DNA of 64,000 nt from a phage: sequence record PZ445554.1. One strand, given 5' to 3'. The position numbers and the translations under genes were made by a program. Below the pieces are notes generated by a model, which was not told the DNA's origin, did no database searches, and saw only the letters and a list, made by a program, of their open reading frames with translations. This document shows positions 14,674 through 22,537 of the stretch, one piece after another; position 1 is the stretch's first letter, and every line of letters starts with the position of its first letter.

Positions 14674-14911
14674 TAATAATCGCCTTATAAAGATAGCTAA
14701 TTTCGCCTAAAATATAATCATTGATTGTAACAGTTTTCACTTCACCACAAAAGAATTCTAACGCAATTAAATCTCGTTCAATTTCTTCTAATTGAAGCCT
14801 CAACTTACTAGATTCTATTTTTACAGTTTCACGATTTTTGCTATAAGCAATTTCATAAATTTCGCTTACTTTATCTTGAAGAAGATAAAACTGATCTTTA
14901 GTTATTTCCAC
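14666..14911 (-). CDS. Hypothetical small protein (about 81 aa), non-ATG start
   Basis: ORF track 14666..14926 has no ATG; candidate GTG start after GAGGAAG. Confidence 0.4.
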   Translation of the reverse strand: MEITKDQFYLLQDKVSEIYEIAYSKNRETVKIESSKLRLQLEEIERDLIALEFFCGEVKTVTINDYILGEISYLYKAIIND

Positions 14912-15158
14912 GAATAGCTTCCTCAAATTTAATCAGTAATTTACAAACACTTTCATCTAGTGTAATTACCGTATCTGTATTACTGTGATATGATTGTTTT
15001 TCAATTCGTTTAATTGCTAATATAGTATCACTTATAAGATAAAGCTTATGAAGGAGCTCAGCTCCTGTTACCATAACATTAAGATTATCTTGCTTATTAG
15101 TATGCTTCCTTATACCATCTATTAGACGATTTAAATATTTTGAATTGATGTTAATCAT
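14898..15158 (-). CDS. Hypothetical protein (86 aa)
   Basis: ORF track; ATG at 15156-15158. Confidence 0.55.
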   Translation of the reverse strand: MININSKYLNRLIDGIRKHTNKQDNLNVMVTGAELLHKLYLISDTILAIKRIEKQSYHSNTDTVITLDESVCKLLIKFEEAIRGNN

Positions 15159-19144: not shown

Positions 19145-19627
19145 CTAGCGATAAAAACCAAAATAACGATTAGCTTCAACAATCTTTCTTTCTTCTTCGG
19201 ACATTCTCCAGCGTAGTCCAACATCAAAATGAGCCCAGACCATCTTAACAAATGCATTTATATCTTTAATATCTTCAATAATGAATGTTTTACTTTTAGA
19301 ATGTTGACCTGCTAAATTAAGTGCTAATTTAACGTTATCATCTTCAAACAGGTCAAAAAGACCATATTCATGAGCTCTTTTATAGCCTTTAATAGTTAAA
19401 GCTTCAGAAGAAGAAAACGGTGAATCAGTATTCTGCAAAATATCTTCAGTATGCTTTATAATTAGAATAACATTTTCTGGATATTTTCTTTCTTGTATAT
19501 CTTTAATTAAAAAATCCGGATTTTCTGCTAAAGGAATAATTAATGAGCATTTTTTACCAAGAGTATTTACTGATTTACCTTCTTTAGACATGAATTCTAC
19601 TGAATAATGTTTTGCTACTTCAATCAT
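19145..19627 (-). CDS. Hypothetical protein (160 aa); position corresponds to T4 mrh (tentative)
   Basis: ORF track; ATG at 19625-19627. Confidence 0.6.
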
Positions 19628-19784: not shown

Positions 19785-19984
19785 GATTTATCACCATAGA
19801 TGTCTCTCATCAATTTAAGCGCTGAGCGTTCTAATTTCTTTTCTTTCTCAGCACTAATCATTGATTTCATCCATTCTTCCGATTCGTTCTGCATTTCTTT
19901 ATTTGCTTGTTCAACCCAACCATCATCAATATACATTGAGTTTGGTCTATTGAACCATTCAAGAATCTTCTTGAGAGCTTTCAT
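19781..19984 (-). CDS. Hypothetical protein (67 aa)
   Basis: ORF track; ATG at 19982-19984. Confidence 0.5.
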
Positions 19985-20444
19985 TTATTTTACCTAAAAC
20001 AATAGTAGGAGCATCGTCAAATTTATGAATTTTTAGCAAATTTGGATTTAAATTATTCCATAAAGAGGTAATAAAATATGATAGCGCACTTTCGTCCGTA
20101 ATTATAAATTTATTTCCTTTATCTATTTTCCAATCATATATTGAATCATATGAATAGAAGGATAACGGTTTATTATTATAATATGCTTCAGCAACATCAA
20201 TATAGTTAGATTTAGTAAATGCTTGAATTGCCATAAATGGAGAATTTTGTACAGTTTCAATAATTCCGATCTTTTTAAGTTTTATTTCAACATCTTCTGG
20301 AATTGGCATTGAAATAAAATCTTCTACTAGATACATGTTATTGTCATATCTTTTATCAATCATTACTGCTACGGTAATTGGAACATCCTTGACAAACGCC
20401 ATACTAATACTATTGATAGACATTTCAAACAAAATTGCTTCCAT
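19959..20444 (-). CDS. Hypothetical protein (161 aa)
   Basis: ORF track 19959..20456 (TTG); ATG at 20444 after GAGGAAAA. Confidence 0.55.
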
Positions 20445-20452
20445 AATTTTCC

Positions 20453-20794
20453 TCAATCACAAGATGTAGATGAACAACTAGAATCACAAGAACTTCCACA
20501 TGAATCGCCCGTCCATACATGAACAGGAACATTAGTATCATATGAATCAGAACTAGACTGTGTTTTCTGTGTGTTAGATGATGCAGTAGGTGTTGACCAG
20601 CGCCAAGGATTTTTATAATATTCTTGGGCTTCTTCATAAGTCATAGTAACTGCTTCTACTGTTCCATCTCCCATATAAACATATTCAACTACAGTTAAAG
20701 GGAGATAGTCATTTGAAATAGGAACTACACCTTCTCCAGGAGTCGTAGAGAAAAAATCCGTAAAGAAACTTTTAAACCAATTAAAGATAAACAT
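20453..20794 (-). CDS. Hypothetical protein (113 aa) with Cys/Ser-rich C-terminal tail
   Basis: ORF track; C-terminus [18 protein letters not shown]. Confidence 0.55.
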
Positions 20795-21000
20795 TACAAA
20801 AAGCCTCTTTTGAATTCAACTTGTTTATCGCCATAATCATATCGAATTTCTGCATTAAATTCAACAGAACCATCTGCGTACATCATAAATGAATGAACAA
20901 CAACTTCTGTAGACCATGGTTGCAGTTCATATTTCTTCATTACATGCCGTGAAATGATAATATCTAAATCTTCATTTGGTTTAATCCAACGATTTAACAT
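20794..21000 (-). CDS. Hypothetical protein (68 aa)
   Basis: ORF track; ATG at 20998-21000. Confidence 0.5.
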   Translation of the reverse strand: MLNRWIKPNEDLDIIISRHVMKKYELQPWSTEVVVHSFMMYADGSVEFNAEIRYDYGDKQVEFKRGFL

Positions 21001-21026: not shown

Positions 21027-21056
21027 ATTATACCATACTCATTTTGGAAAGTAAAC
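21027..21056 (-). promoter_or_regulatory. T4-type early promoter (GTTTAC-N17-GTATAAT)
   Basis: Minus-strand GTTTACTTTCCAAAATGAGTATGGTATAATAG. Confidence 0.55.
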
Positions 21057-21072
21057 CGGTAAAATGAAAAAA

Positions 21073-21090
21073 GGACTCCCGAAGGAGTCC
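21073..21090 (-). terminator. UUCG-tetraloop hairpin (GGACTCC-CGAA-GGAGTCC) after soc
   Basis: Perfect 7 bp inverted repeat 9 nt downstream of soc stop. Confidence 0.55.
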
Positions 21091-21098
21091 TTGAATTA

Positions 21099-21374: not shown

Positions 21375-21548
21375 TCAGTCTTCAATGAAAACTTGTGCCA
21401 GGAATTCGTGTTCATCTTGAATTTGTTTATATAAAGCCATTACAGCATTTATATTAGAGCTATCTACTTTAAGTTGATAAGCATACCACTCGTGTAAATT
21501 AATTAAAGCTTTTTGACGTCTAATAAATTCTTCTTTGGATATTTTCAT
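21375..21548 (-). CDS. Hypothetical protein (57 aa), not in ORF track
   Basis: ATGA overlap with upstream ORF; MKISKEEFIRRQKALINLHEWYAYQLKVDSS. Confidence 0.45.
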   Translation of the reverse strand: MKISKEEFIRRQKALINLHEWYAYQLKVDSSNINAVMALYKQIQDEHEFLAQVFIED

Positions 21549-21745
21549 TTTGAATGCTCTATAATTAATTTTAAGGCTTTTTCACTGACAAAAATTTCAT
21601 CAGGACCTTCTTCTACAACCCAATCAACCATACGAAGCTGATTAGATAAGAGCTCGTATGTGAGCTCTTTGTCATAATTTTTAAATAGCTGGTCAATACG
21701 TTTCTTGCGGGCTTTCTTAAGCTGGCGTTTATTTAAACGAGCCAT
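21545..21745 (-). CDS. Hypothetical basic protein (66 aa)
   Basis: ORF track 21545..21748 (TTG); ATG at 21745 overlapping gene 56 stop. Confidence 0.5.
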   Translation of the reverse strand: MARLNKRQLKKARKKRIDQLFKNYDKELTYELLSNQLRMVDWVVEEGPDEIFVSEKALKLIIEHSK

Positions 21746-22263
21746 CAATAACCTCGGTCTTGACGAGCGAAATTTTCAGCATTTTTCAGATAATAAAGTT
21801 TAAAGATTTCTTCAGCTGACATTCCAAGAGCAATGAATTTATTCATGAAAAAGTGAAATTGGTCAATCAGTTCAAATTTAATTTCAAGCTGATCTTCGGG
21901 AGATAAATCTTGAATTTTCTTGGATTGCATTTCAGAATAACGTTTCTTCCAAGGTTTCCATACGGCAGAAGCTTCTTTTTCACCATTACTCATACCACCA
22001 AGAGAAGTATATAGCTCGCGAGTTTCATCTGCGATATAATCGTCTTGGTTTCGCAGCCAAGCAAGAACTTCTCCTGCAGTTTCAAGTGAATCAGGATGAC
22101 GATTTGTTTCTGGTTTATCATTAGCCAAACGAATCTGTAAATGCCGCTGCATATCAAGCATAACCTGCAGTGGGTCAATATTGTGCATAATATTCTCAGC
22201 ATATGCACGAGTTGCTTTATCAACACCTTCGATCAAATGAGCACATTCATTAAAGTGAGCCAT
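21745..22263 (-). CDS. 56: dCTPase-dUTPase gp56 (MazG-like)
   Basis: ORF track 21745..22371; start at internal ATG (MAHFNECAHLIEGVDKA) after AAAGGA, giving 172 aa as recalled for T4 gp56. Confidence 0.85.
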   Translation of the reverse strand: MAHFNECAHLIEGVDKATRAYAENIMHNIDPLQVMLDMQRHLQIRLANDKPETNRHPDSLETAGEVLAWLRNQDDYIADETRELYTSLGGMSNGEKEASAVWKPWKKRYSEMQSKKIQDLSPEDQLEIKFELIDQFHFFMNKFIALGMSAEEIFKLYYLKNAENFARQDRGY

Positions 22264-22336
22264 TATTTTTCCTTTCAATTCATGGATTAATAGATTAATT
22301 ATACAATAAATATATAAAGCAATAAGGAGGATATAT

Positions 22337-22537
22337 ATGGTACAAAAATTAATGGCACTTGTTAATGCCATAAAAGGTAATAAAAAACGTATAGCTTTTA
22401 CTATTTCTGCTATGGTAGGAATTTTACTCTGGAACTTTATTCTATCACCTGTTGCAATTGCACATGGTATTAATATTCCAGTAGTTACTCTTGATACATT
22501 CGTAGATTTAGCATTTGCTTTAGTTGGGTTAATTTAA
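22337..22537 (+). CDS. Small hydrophobic protein (66 aa) on plus strand in the 56-61 interval
   Basis: ORF track; strong AGGAGG Shine-Dalgarno 7 nt before ATG; two hydrophobic segments; converges on gene 61 3-prime end. Confidence 0.45.
   Translation: MVQKLMALVNAIKGNKKRIAFTISAMVGILLWNFILSPVAIAHGINIPVVTLDTFVDLAFALVGLI

What the first reader, a model, noticed from the sequence alone, without database searches (positions are those of the whole stretch)
20453..20794. Small protein with a Cys/Ser-rich C-terminal tail
The 113 aa product ends [18 protein letters not shown], a low-complexity run of six cysteines spaced by serines. This suggests metal binding or a modification site and is unusual for phage early proteins.
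Basis: seen in the sequence. Interest (0 to 1): 0.4.

Follow-up and report, generated by a model that had tools for sequence, protein, structure and literature searches.

The report
T4 Mrh.1: conserved Cys-Asp tail
The ORF is this phage's copy of T4 early gene mrh.1, an already catalogued protein of unknown function (Pfam DUF7206); its Ser/Cys-rich tail is real (four cysteines, not six), and a form of it with two fixed cysteines and a terminal Cys-Asp is kept in every full-length relative, but what it does is untested.

Summary
The 113-aa ORF at 20453-20794 (minus strand) exists and ends [18 protein letters not shown]. That string holds four cysteines and eight serines, not six cysteines. The window is a Tequatrovirus. 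The gene is the ortholog of T4 mrh.1 (3 differences in 113 residues; Pfam DUF7206, E=3e-29) in the conserved slot soc > mrh.2 > mrh.1 > mrh.

The reading frame is confirmed: substitutions among close relatives fall 11/8/30 at codon positions 1/2/3. All 114 full-length cluster representatives, from T4-like phages of many Enterobacterales hosts, end Cys-Asp (two end Cys-Asn). A second invariant Cys lies 4-10 Ser/Gly residues upstream, and the linker before the tail is hypervariable. Tail codons vary synonymously, so selection acts on the protein. The two extra cysteines of the T4 type replace tyrosines found in other genera.

T4 mrh.1 RNA is early, but the protein was not detected in a published proteome. 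I found no matching structure or characterised family, and no paper on its function. My best guess, at low confidence, is a flexible thiolate-plus-carboxylate C-terminal ligand (metal clasp or docking peptide) on a disordered leash. It is a known uncharacterised gene with a well-defined, unexplained motif: modest interest.

The parts
20453..20794 (-). mrh.1 coding sequence (113 aa plus TGA stop); ortholog of T4 mrh.1 (NP_049642, UniProt P20706); Pfam DUF7206, PHROG 2031
   Evidence: ORF. DUF7206 E=3.1e-29, 102 bits against a cut-off of 25.6, matched over almost the full length. PHROG 2031. Named mrh.1 in annotated relatives. Three differences from T4 Mrh.1 (A71T, K77N, T95A).
20747..20794 (-). 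N-terminal aromatic/amphipathic helix (residues 1-16, [16 protein letters not shown]); family consensus M-[IF]-x-W-L-K-x-L-F
   Evidence: AlphaFold helix 4-15. K8, F15 and P19 are invariant or nearly so. Hydrophobic moment 0.56 here; the family median of 0.62 equals the 90th percentile of window ORFs. Membrane or partner anchoring is inferred, not shown.
20612..20695 (-). Small beta-hairpin plus helix core (residues 34-61) with the invariant motif E37-Y-x-Y-M-G-D-G-x-x-E47 (DNA 20654..20686)
   Evidence: Invariant columns. AlphaFold strands 34-40 and 46-52 and helix 53-61, block pLDDT 74-83. 11 synonymous-only against 1 amino-acid-changing variable codon in residues 1-66.
20516..20611 (-). Hypervariable, disordered Ser/Thr-rich linker (residues 62-93)
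   Evidence: pLDDT below 50. 8 amino-acid-changing against 10 synonymous variable codons, plus indels, among close relatives. No alignable conservation between genera; 47-113 residues lie between the core motif and the tail across the family.
20456..20515 (-). Conserved C-terminal tail [20 protein letters not shown] (residues 94-113). Family-invariant: C107 (20474..20476), C112 (20459..20461) and terminal D113 (20456..20458)
   Evidence: Synonymous codon turnover with fixed amino acids. 5 synonymous against 1 amino-acid-changing variable codon among close relatives.
20794..21000 (-). mrh.2 (68 aa), immediately upstream; its TAA stop overlaps the mrh.1 ATG by one base (TAATG), which suggests translational coupling
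   Evidence: Co-located with mrh.1 in L017, L023, L025 and L027, and weakly in L030, but not in L028 or L029. PHROG 1873, function unknown.
19959..20444 (-). mrh (161 aa, Pfam T4_MRH), 8 nt downstream; its Shine-Dalgarno sequence overlaps the mrh.1 stop (GAT TGA GGAAAATT ATG)
21027..21092 (-). Terminator-like hairpin after soc (21071..21092), then a sigma-70-like promoter with extended -10 (TTTACT-17-TATAAT, 21027..21055) ahead of mrh.2 and mrh.1
   Evidence: Consensus scan only. Consistent with the early RNA class of T4 mrh.1 and mrh.2.

Best explanation
The ORF is the ortholog of T4 early gene mrh.1. It is a modular accessory protein confined to T4-like phages of Enterobacterales.

Shown: it has an N-terminal amphipathic helix, a roughly 30-residue beta-hairpin/helix core with an invariant EYxYMGDGxxE motif, and a disordered linker of freely varying length and sequence. 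It ends in an acidic Ser/Gly-rich tail built from [Tyr/Cys]-Asp dyads that always finishes Cys-(Asp)-(Ser/Gly)4-10-Cys-Asp-COOH. The core and the tail are under purifying selection at the protein level; the linker is not.

Inferred: the tail is the functional end. I read it as a flexible loop whose two invariant thiolates, neighbouring Asp carboxylates and obligately free C-terminal carboxylate close around a metal ion, possibly shared between two copies or with a partner's metal site. It would then act as a tethered ligand for a host or phage target, with the N-terminal helix supplying membrane or partner anchoring. The four-Cys tail of T4-type phages is a Tyr-to-Cys variant of the ancestral two-Cys/two-Tyr tail, not a distinct metallothionein-like invention.
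For: Identity and reality of the gene; codon-position bias 11/8/30; early RNA in T4.

Tail conservation: 114/114 full-length representatives have Cys at -2, 112 have D and 2 have N at -1, and all have S/G/T at -3. The second invariant Cys lies 4-10 residues upstream and is followed by Asp in 99/114.

Protein-level selection: Ser codons switch between TCN and AGY, Cys between TGT and TGC, Asp between GAT and GAC, and the stop between TGA and TAA. The tail survives a roughly 50-aa insertion (P0003) and linkers of 47-113 residues.

Pointers to chelation rather than a rigid docking motif: the Cys-Cys spacing varies and the spacer is almost purely Ser/Gly/Asp. Cys+Tyr in the last 25 residues is 3-5 in 110/114, mode 4; the T4 type has 4 Cys and 0 Tyr, most others 2 Cys and 2 Tyr. 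Both residues are metal-ligand types, each usually paired with Asp. Cys is absent from the rest of the protein in 104/114.

Disorder and modularity: AlphaFold model.
Against: Only two cysteines are universal, too few for a classical four-thiolate site in a monomer. No metal-binding family, solved structure or fold is matched. The tail is modelled with low confidence (pLDDT about 51). The N-terminal amphipathicity of this particular copy is unremarkable: 19% of window ORFs score as high. The protein was not detected in the T4 time-course proteome. No experiment on Mrh.1 was found in the searchable literature. Strict C-terminal anchoring fits a docking peptide just as well.
Confidence: 0.35

Rival explanations
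1. The tail is a C-terminal short linear docking motif. The free ...S-C-D-COOH end and the upstream [Y/C]-D dyads insert into a pocket of a host (or phage) protein. The cysteines act as contact residues or as a ligand to the target's own metal, not as an autonomous metal site.
For: Absolute anchoring at the C-terminus: nothing ever follows the C-[D/N] end in 114/114 representatives. The tail sits on a disordered, variable leash, as tethered peptide ligands typically do. It is an early gene in a host-takeover cluster alongside mrh, srh, modA and modB. From general knowledge, not tested here: C-terminal tails of E. coli CysE, SSB and FtsZ work this way, and a polar or acidic C-terminus protects an unstructured tail from C-terminal degron proteolysis.
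Against: Spacing between the two invariant Cys varies from 4 to 10 residues and the spacer is low-complexity Ser/Gly, which is unusual for a motif read by a rigid groove. No target is known and no co-evolving partner was identified. The exact common tail motif is absent from 185,579 bacterial and archaeal genomes, so it does not copy that form of a cellular tail.
Confidence: 0.25
2. The tail is a substrate for post-translational modification, like the core of a RiPP precursor. The conserved N-terminal part would act as a recognition leader and the Ser/Cys residues would be dehydrated, cyclised or cross-linked.
For: A Ser/Cys-rich C-terminal segment follows a conserved N-terminal region. There is a weak compositional hit of residues 95-109 to the FxLD lanthipeptide precursor model TIGR04363 (E=0.034, 14.1 bits).
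Against: The hit is far below the model's cut-off of 30 bits. No cyclodehydratase, lanthipeptide synthetase, radical-SAM maturase, protease or exporter lies within 3 kb in any of seven loci examined; the neighbours with a family match are Mrh.2, T4_MRH-family proteins, Srh and ModA/ModB relatives, and the rest are small ORFs with no match. The proteins are 70-164 aa (median 120), which I judge long for a RiPP precursor, and have a 47-113-residue non-conserved spacer between 'leader' and 'core'. Tyr and Cys interchange, which the azoline and lanthionine chemistries I know of would not tolerate. To my knowledge (not tested here) T4 encodes no such enzyme apart from the NrdG activase.
Confidence: 0.07
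3. The tail has no specific ligand. It is a generic acidic, hydrophilic, disordered 'bristle' that keeps the small protein soluble or protease-resistant, and its low-complexity composition is maintained loosely.
For: Composition of the last 20 residues is S 45%, D 17%, G 15%. It is predicted disordered. The tail length and the number of dyads vary.
Against: Two cysteines and the terminal Asp are position-invariant across genera, while the equally low-complexity linker drifts freely. Cys is otherwise avoided in the protein. A generic bristle would not need thiols.
Confidence: 0.08
4. The tail is an artefact: the region is non-coding or read in another frame, or its conservation reflects a DNA or RNA element such as the downstream mrh ribosome-binding site.
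For: An alternative 70-aa ORF overlaps it (20425..20637). The mrh Shine-Dalgarno sequence overlaps the mrh.1 stop codon.
Against: Third-position bias in the mrh.1 frame. Synonymous turnover in the tail, including a change of stop codon. Amino-acid conservation holds at about 35-65% overall identity across genera. A Pfam full-length match covers the tail. No tandem repeat and no credible Rfam match in the region; the one weak chance-level Rfam match lies outside the gene.
Confidence: 0.01

Closest known systems
Bacteriophage T4 Mrh.1 (NP_049642 / UniProt P20706), Pfam DUF7206 (PF23836), PHROG 2031
   Same: Same length, 113 aa. Three differences from T4 Mrh.1, two in the linker (A71T, K77N) and one at the start of the tail block (T95A). 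Identical 18-residue Cys/Ser tail. Same genomic slot between mrh.2 and mrh.
   Different: Nothing of substance. The family itself has no assigned function, and I found no published description of the tail motif.
RiPP precursor peptides with Ser/Cys-rich cores (FxLD lanthipeptide precursors, TIGR04363; microcin B17-type azole peptides, the latter from memory)
   Same: A conserved N-terminal part followed by a C-terminal stretch rich in Ser and Cys. Weak compositional match of residues 95-109.
   Different: 14.1 bits against a cut-off of 30. No maturation enzyme, protease or exporter nearby. Much longer, with a long non-conserved spacer. Tyr substitutes for Cys in most members. An invariant terminal Asp.
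FeoB-associated Cys-rich membrane protein family (PF12669)
   Same: A weak compositional match between the family's C-terminal profile region and the Cys/Ser part of the T4-type tail. The family name indicates a Cys-rich membrane protein, and Mrh.1 also has an N-terminal hydrophobic or amphipathic helix.
   Different: 8.4 bits against a cut-off of 27, and only for the T4-type four-Cys tail, not the two-Cys tails of other genera. The Mrh.1 N-terminus is amphipathic and interrupted by N, K, S, T and D residues, so it does not look like a transmembrane segment. That family's function is also uncharacterised, as far as I know.
Tethered C-terminal tail ligands of bacterial proteins (CysE tail into the CysK active site; SSB and FtsZ C-terminal peptides) - analogy from general knowledge only
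   Same: A disordered leash and a functional element that must sit at the very C-terminus.
   Different: No sequence resemblance. The partner is unknown. Not tested here.

Membership tests
Pfam DUF7206 (PF23836) / T4 Mrh.1 orthologs | Family profile matched above the curated gathering score over the full length | tested here: met
   102.2 bits against a cut-off of 25.6, residues 3-113 on profile positions 1-107 of 107. PHROG 2031 E=3.6e-33.
Pfam DUF7206 (PF23836) / T4 Mrh.1 orthologs | Syntenic position soc > mrh.2 > mrh.1 > mrh/srh in a T4-like genome | tested here: met
   Annotated relatives and T4 itself. Same order in L017, L023, L025 and L027.
Pfam DUF7206 (PF23836) / T4 Mrh.1 orthologs | Signature defined here: EYxYMGDG core plus a C-terminal Cys-x(4-10)-Cys-[D/N] end | tested here: met
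   E37-G44 and C107, C112, D113 are present. The C-terminal end is found in 114/114 full-length representatives; Y.Y.G.G is found in 100/114.
RiPP precursor (lanthipeptide or azol(in)e peptide) | Precursor family model matched above cut-off | tested here: not met
   TIGR04363: 14.1 bits against a cut-off of 30. No Pfam RiPP family even at E up to 10 for the tail alone.
RiPP precursor (lanthipeptide or azol(in)e peptide) | Cognate modifying enzyme encoded nearby | tested here: not met
   Within 3 kb in seven loci, the ORFs with a match are Mrh.2, T4_MRH-family proteins, Srh, ModA.2-4, ModB, Soc, dCTPase and primase; several others have no match. The rest of the genome was not scanned here.
RiPP precursor (lanthipeptide or azol(in)e peptide) | The tail is covalently modified in vivo | not testable with these tools
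   Needs intact-mass or MS/MS data. The protein was not even detected in the published T4 proteome.
Autonomous Cys4 metal site (metallothionein-like or zinc-ribbon-like) | Four or more conserved metal-ligand cysteines | tested here: not met
   Only C107 and C112 are invariant. 108/114 representatives have just two Cys in the last 25 residues.
Autonomous Cys4 metal site (metallothionein-like or zinc-ribbon-like) | Metal actually bound | not testable with these tools
   Requires purified protein (ICP-MS, native MS).
FeoB-associated Cys-rich membrane protein (PF12669) | Family profile above the gathering score | tested here: not met
   8.4 bits against a cut-off of 27, E=3.5, T4-type tail only.
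Amphipathic-helix membrane-targeting sequence (MinD/FtsA type) | A terminal helix of about 10-15 residues with a high hydrophobic moment and basic flanks | tested here: inconclusive
   Helix 4-15 is predicted. The moment is 0.56 for this copy, and 19% of window ORFs score as high. The family median of 0.62 is at the 90th percentile. Resemblance to the FtsA and MinD sequences is from memory only. Localisation is untested.

The most novel reading that the evidence does not exclude
Mrh.1 is a membrane-tethered 'fishing-line' inhibitor. The N-terminal amphipathic helix parks it on the cytoplasmic face of the inner membrane, and the flexible leash delivers the bis(Cys-Asp) C-terminal tail into the metal centre of a host membrane metalloprotein. 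The most attractive candidate is the zinc protease FtsH, which degrades sigma-32. That would make mrh.2-mrh.1-mrh-srh a cassette tuning the host heat-shock and chaperone response that T4 head assembly depends on. A thiol/carboxylate C-terminal 'warhead' of this kind would be a new class of phage-encoded enzyme inhibitor.
Probability: 0.06. Interest if true: 0.7.

Novelty: already known. Interest (0 to 1): 0.3.

Why it matters
T4 is the reference lytic phage, yet many of its early genes still have no known function. Here mrh.1 becomes a precisely defined object with two conserved modules and a dispensable leash. That gives clean mutational targets: C107, C112, D113, a tail deletion, and a C-terminal extension. 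If the tail proves to be a metal clasp or a tethered inhibitor of a host enzyme, it would add a new small-protein host-takeover mechanism. It might also connect to the neighbouring sigma-32-modulating genes mrh and srh. If not, this is one more accessory ORF. The gene and its family are already in the databases, so the finding is not a discovery of a new element.

Tried and rejected
1. BLAST-based tail comparison. The low-complexity filter cut every tblastn alignment at residue 94, so I read the tails directly from ORFs and protein sets instead.

2. Distant homologs. Exhaustive phmmer over 1.84 billion representatives gave 10 hits. Nine are family members or fragments; one weak hit (P0012, E=1.3e-4) is a 1152-aa repetitive protein that I set aside as spurious.

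3. Solved structures and folds. A profile search of PDB sequences gave nothing below E=1. Foldseek against PDB gave nothing below E=1.8. The model is only moderately confident in residues 34-61, so this negative says little.

4. Partner-enzyme route. I predicted the structure of the neighbouring Mrh (T4_MRH family) to see whether it could act on the tail. The model had pLDDT 36 and is unusable, so no fold search was run. PDB sequence searches for Mrh and Mrh.2 gave nothing significant: best E=0.12 for Mrh, no hit for Mrh.2.

5. Defence and anti-defence libraries. No PADLOC match for Mrh.1 or Mrh, and only a chance-level one (E=0.011) for Mrh.2.

6. Portable-module test. The commonest tail, back-translated (Y-D-S-G-S-C-D-S5-C-D-stop), was found only in three T4-like viral contigs and in none of 185,579 prokaryotic species genomes. 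Only that one tail variant was tested.

7. The 'prohead assembly scaffold protein' label in T6 RefSeq and phage BW-1 was rejected. It belongs to a run of visibly shifted annotation transfers; in the same record the dCTPase is noted 'similar to ferredoxin'.

8. DNA- or RNA-level explanations. No tandem repeat and no credible Rfam match.

9. Literature. No paper discusses mrh.1 function. The CRISPRi-ART supplement held here does not list it. The Mosigvirus AV110 early-protein screen cannot be mapped to the Mrh.1 homolog without its supplement; its hit Emp/Gp94 lies next to motA, a different locus. The Miller et al. 2003 T4 review is not held.

Full report
**1. Observation**

The window holds an ATG-initiated ORF at 20453..20794 on the minus strand. 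It encodes 113 aa and ends [18 protein letters not shown] followed by TGA. The quoted string is exact, but the count is wrong. It contains four cysteines (C99, C103, C107, C112) and eight serines, with spacing C-x3-C-x3-C-x4-C-D, not six cysteines.

The feature is far from chance. Among 150 ORFs of at least 60 aa on both strands of the window, this is the only one with at least 4 Cys and at least 6 Ser in any 18-residue stretch. It is also the only one ending C-D. Background is Cys 1.5% and Ser 7.0%.

**2. Identity**

The 1.5 kb around the ORF is 98.5% identical to Escherichia phage teqhad and matches 703 phage records, mostly Tequatrovirus. In annotated relatives and in T4 itself the gene is mrh.1 (T4 14685..15026, 113 aa, 'Mrh.1 hypothetical protein'). 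The gene order is 61 > 56 > soc.2 > soc.1 > soc > mrh.2 > mrh.1 > mrh > srh > modA.4-.2 > modB > modA.

The window's protein differs from T4 Mrh.1 at three positions: A71T, K77N and T95A. It matches Pfam DUF7206 over almost its full length (102 bits against a cut-off of 25.6) and PHROG 2031, both of unknown function. Source databases name it 'hypothetical' or 'uncharacterized'. The only exception is a 'prohead assembly scaffold protein' label in T6 RefSeq and phage BW-1. That label sits in a run of obviously shifted annotation transfers, so I disregard it.

**3. Is the gene real and read in this frame?**

Among nine close relatives, variable sites fall 11/8/30 at codon positions 1/2/3. The overlapping alternative ORF (20425..20637) stays open in close relatives, but its residues change wherever mrh.1 changes synonymously.

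- In T4, mrh.1 has RNA-seq read counts in the thousands in the 5-min dataset. It is about 2.5-fold higher in the first listed contrast of a DksA/ppGpp host study (PMC6024815 supplement).
- It is classed 'early' at the RNA level in the time-resolved multi-omics study (PMC9697503 supplement).
- In that same table its protein class is NA, meaning not detected, whereas Mrh.2, Mrh and Srh were detected.
- My inference is that detectability is poor. Trypsin cuts this window's protein only at K8, K61, R65 and K77. T4 lacks K77, leaving an even longer C-terminal peptide. The tail therefore sits in a peptide of 36 or more residues with four Cys.

A consensus scan finds a terminator-like hairpin after soc (21071..21092). 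It also finds an extended -10 sigma-70-like promoter (21027..21055) ahead of mrh.2 and mrh.1. The mrh.2 stop overlaps the mrh.1 start (TAATG). The mrh Shine-Dalgarno sequence overlaps the mrh.1 stop.

**4. The tail across the family**

A single-sequence search found only close relatives. Exhaustive phmmer over 1.84 billion representatives gave 10 hits, nine of them family members or fragments and one spurious repetitive protein. A profile built from diverse members recovered 122 cluster representatives, nearly all carrying PF23836. tblastn with divergent members finds the family in at least 776 phage records. The genomes listed are T4-like and about 160-178 kb. Hosts include Escherichia, Shigella, Yersinia, Klebsiella, Salmonella, Citrobacter, Enterobacter, Serratia, Erwinia, Kosakonia and Edwardsiella.

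Of 121 family representatives, 114 are full length and the other seven are fragments or frameshifts. All 114 have:
- Cys at position -2.
- Asp (112) or Asn (2) at -1.
- Ser, Gly or Thr at -3.
- A second Cys 4-10 residues upstream (modes 6 and 8), followed by Asp in 99/114.
- A spacer that is 65% Ser, 19% Gly and 13% Asp.

Upstream of this come one or two more [Tyr/Cys]-Asp dyads (consensus ...S-Y-D-S-G-S-C-D-S-S-S-S-S-C-D). A short beta-prone hydrophobic patch precedes them (IVVTAAAV and similar; VPVHVW in T4).

Only four representatives, the T4-type clusters, have four Cys; 108 have two. Cys plus Tyr in the last 25 residues is 3-5 in 110/114, with mode 4. The T4-type tail is therefore a Tyr-to-Cys variant (TAT to TGT is a single base change) of a two-Cys/two-Tyr tail. 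Cys is absent from the rest of the protein in 104/114.

**5. Level of selection**

Across genera the tail's amino acids are fixed while codons turn over. Ser alternates between TCN and AGY, Cys between TGT and TGC, Asp between GAT and GAC, and the stop between TGA and TAA. Variable codon columns among close relatives:

| Region | Synonymous only | Amino-acid-changing | Indels |
|---|---|---|---|
| Residues 1-66 | 11 | 1 | none |
| Linker 67-94 | 10 | 8 | yes |
| Tail 95-113 | 5 | 1 (T95A) | none |

There is no DNA tandem repeat and no credible Rfam match. The constraint is therefore on the protein, not on the mrh ribosome-binding site or an RNA element. The tail also survives large linker changes. 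P0003 (164 aa, 17 members) carries an extra stretch of about 50 aa yet keeps the T4-type tail. Across the family, 47-113 residues separate the core motif from the tail.

**6. Architecture**

The family alignment shows two conserved blocks. One is E37-Y-x-Y-M-G-D-G-x-x-E47, together with K8, F15 and P19 in the N-terminal segment. The other is the tail.

AlphaFold2 with a 63-sequence alignment gives helix 4-15, strands 34-40 and 46-52, and helix 53-61 (block pLDDT 74-83). Residues 62-113 are disordered, with the tail at pLDDT about 51. The N-terminal consensus M-[IF]-x-W-L-K-x-L-F is amphipathic. The family median hydrophobic moment of 0.62 is at the 90th percentile of window ORFs. This copy scores 0.56, which is unremarkable. 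The middle region is typically net basic (median +3) and the tail acidic (median -3).

**7. Context**

mrh.1 keeps its slot after soc and an mrh.2-like ORF in Tequatrovirus-like and several other T4-like loci (L017, L023, L025, L027, and weakly L030). mrh itself is absent next to it in three of those loci, but its paralog modA.3 (both Pfam T4_MRH) lies 2-3 genes away. In L029 and L030 a 169-aa ORF with a weak mrh or modA.3 match follows directly. No neighbour matched an enzyme family that could modify a peptide.

[quoted passage not shown] A T4-related phage (RB43) is known to stabilise sigma-32, which the membrane protease FtsH degrades (PMC3486835). This is context only. Nothing links Mrh.1 to it.

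**8. What it is not**

No PDB sequence relative, no fold match, no PADLOC match and no NCBIfam family above cut-off. The tail alone matches only DUF7206, plus a chance-level echo of the FeoB-associated Cys-rich membrane protein family (8.4 bits against 27; T4-type tail only). The whole protein gives a sub-threshold hit of residues 95-109 to an FxLD lanthipeptide precursor model (14.1 bits against 30). The commonest tail motif, back-translated, occurs in three T4-like viral contigs and in none of 185,579 prokaryotic species genomes.

**9. Mechanism**

Shown: the tail is a conserved, protein-level-selected, strictly C-terminal element on a dispensable leash.

Inferred, as the best explanation (confidence about 0.35): a flexible bis(Cys-Asp) loop with a free C-terminal carboxylate that chelates a metal, or completes or occupies a partner's metal site. 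The arguments are the tolerance of variable Ser/Gly spacing, the pairing of each Cys or Tyr with Asp, the Tyr/Cys interchange, and the avoidance of Cys elsewhere.

Rivals:
- A C-terminal docking motif without autonomous metal binding (0.25).
- A modification substrate (0.07). This is disfavoured by the absence of enzymes nearby, the long spacer and the Tyr/Cys interchange.
- A generic acidic bristle (0.08). This is disfavoured by the invariant thiols.
- An artefact or wrong frame (0.01), refuted.

The remaining probability is 'something else'. The most novel reading not excluded is a membrane-tethered thiol 'warhead' against a host membrane metalloprotein such as FtsH, tying it to the adjacent sigma-32 genes. 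I rate that at about 6%.

**10. Verdict**

The gene is an already catalogued T4 ORF (mrh.1, DUF7206). What this analysis adds is a precise definition of its two conserved modules and of the tail signature, plus a set of clean experiments. Interest is modest (0.3).

Noticed in passing
Protein P0003 (Escherichia phage 235Ecol030PP, 164 aa; cluster of 17): A hybrid Mrh.1. It has the T4-type N-half and linker, then a degenerate second copy of the core (NVYASDDTMEEIIRQPEK, compare [19 protein letters not shown]). A middle segment like that of the two-Cys relatives follows, and the protein ends in the T4-type four-Cys tail. This suggests the 113-aa T4 form is a deletion derivative, or that recombination occurs within the conserved core.
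   Followed up: partly
L029:2780-2995 and L030:2544-2759 (+ strand): A different 71-aa ORF lies upstream of the mrh.1 homolog: immediately upstream in L029, and one ORF further up in L030. It starts ...KLNPLPWIKNWLSQP. This is the same W-[IL]-K-x-[WL]-[LF] helix motif that opens Mrh.1 family members (for example P0119, MKMNPLPWIKSWFETKP). The N-terminal helix may be a portable targeting module shared by several small early proteins.
   Followed up: no
window 21545-22537: Relative to T4, this phage has no segF between soc and gene 56; soc.1 and soc.2 sit there instead. It also has no dam between gene 56 and gene 61. A 66-aa plus-strand ORF (22337..22537, named RB32ORF030w in a relative) fills that gap.
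   Followed up: no
window 19145-19627 and 19959-20444 (- strand): modA.3 and mrh are paralogs; both match Pfam T4_MRH (PF24070, E=2e-37 and 1e-41). The AlphaFold model of Mrh from a shallow alignment was unusable (pLDDT 36).
   Followed up: partly
P0006 (141 aa, from a 175-kb phage record); L007/L022 (IMG/VR contig 3300006879_000208): Naturally frameshifted mrh.1 copies that lose the tail. P0006 reads into the alternative frame after about residue 60; L007 stops at codon 28. This is consistent with a dispensable accessory gene, or with sequencing errors.
   Followed up: no
L015 (T6 RefSeq NC_054907.1, 12892-16164): A run of mis-transferred product names: mrh.1 as 'prohead assembly scaffold protein', modA.4 as 'prohead core scaffold protein', and the dCTPase noted 'similar to ferredoxin'. 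It looks like an index shift in an automated annotation transfer, and the label has spread to at least one other record (phage BW-1).
   Followed up: partly
window 20589-20604 (+ strand): A terminator-like hairpin on the antisense strand inside mrh.1 (GGTGTTGACCAGCGCC plus a T-run). It is probably a chance match to the consensus scan.
   Followed up: no
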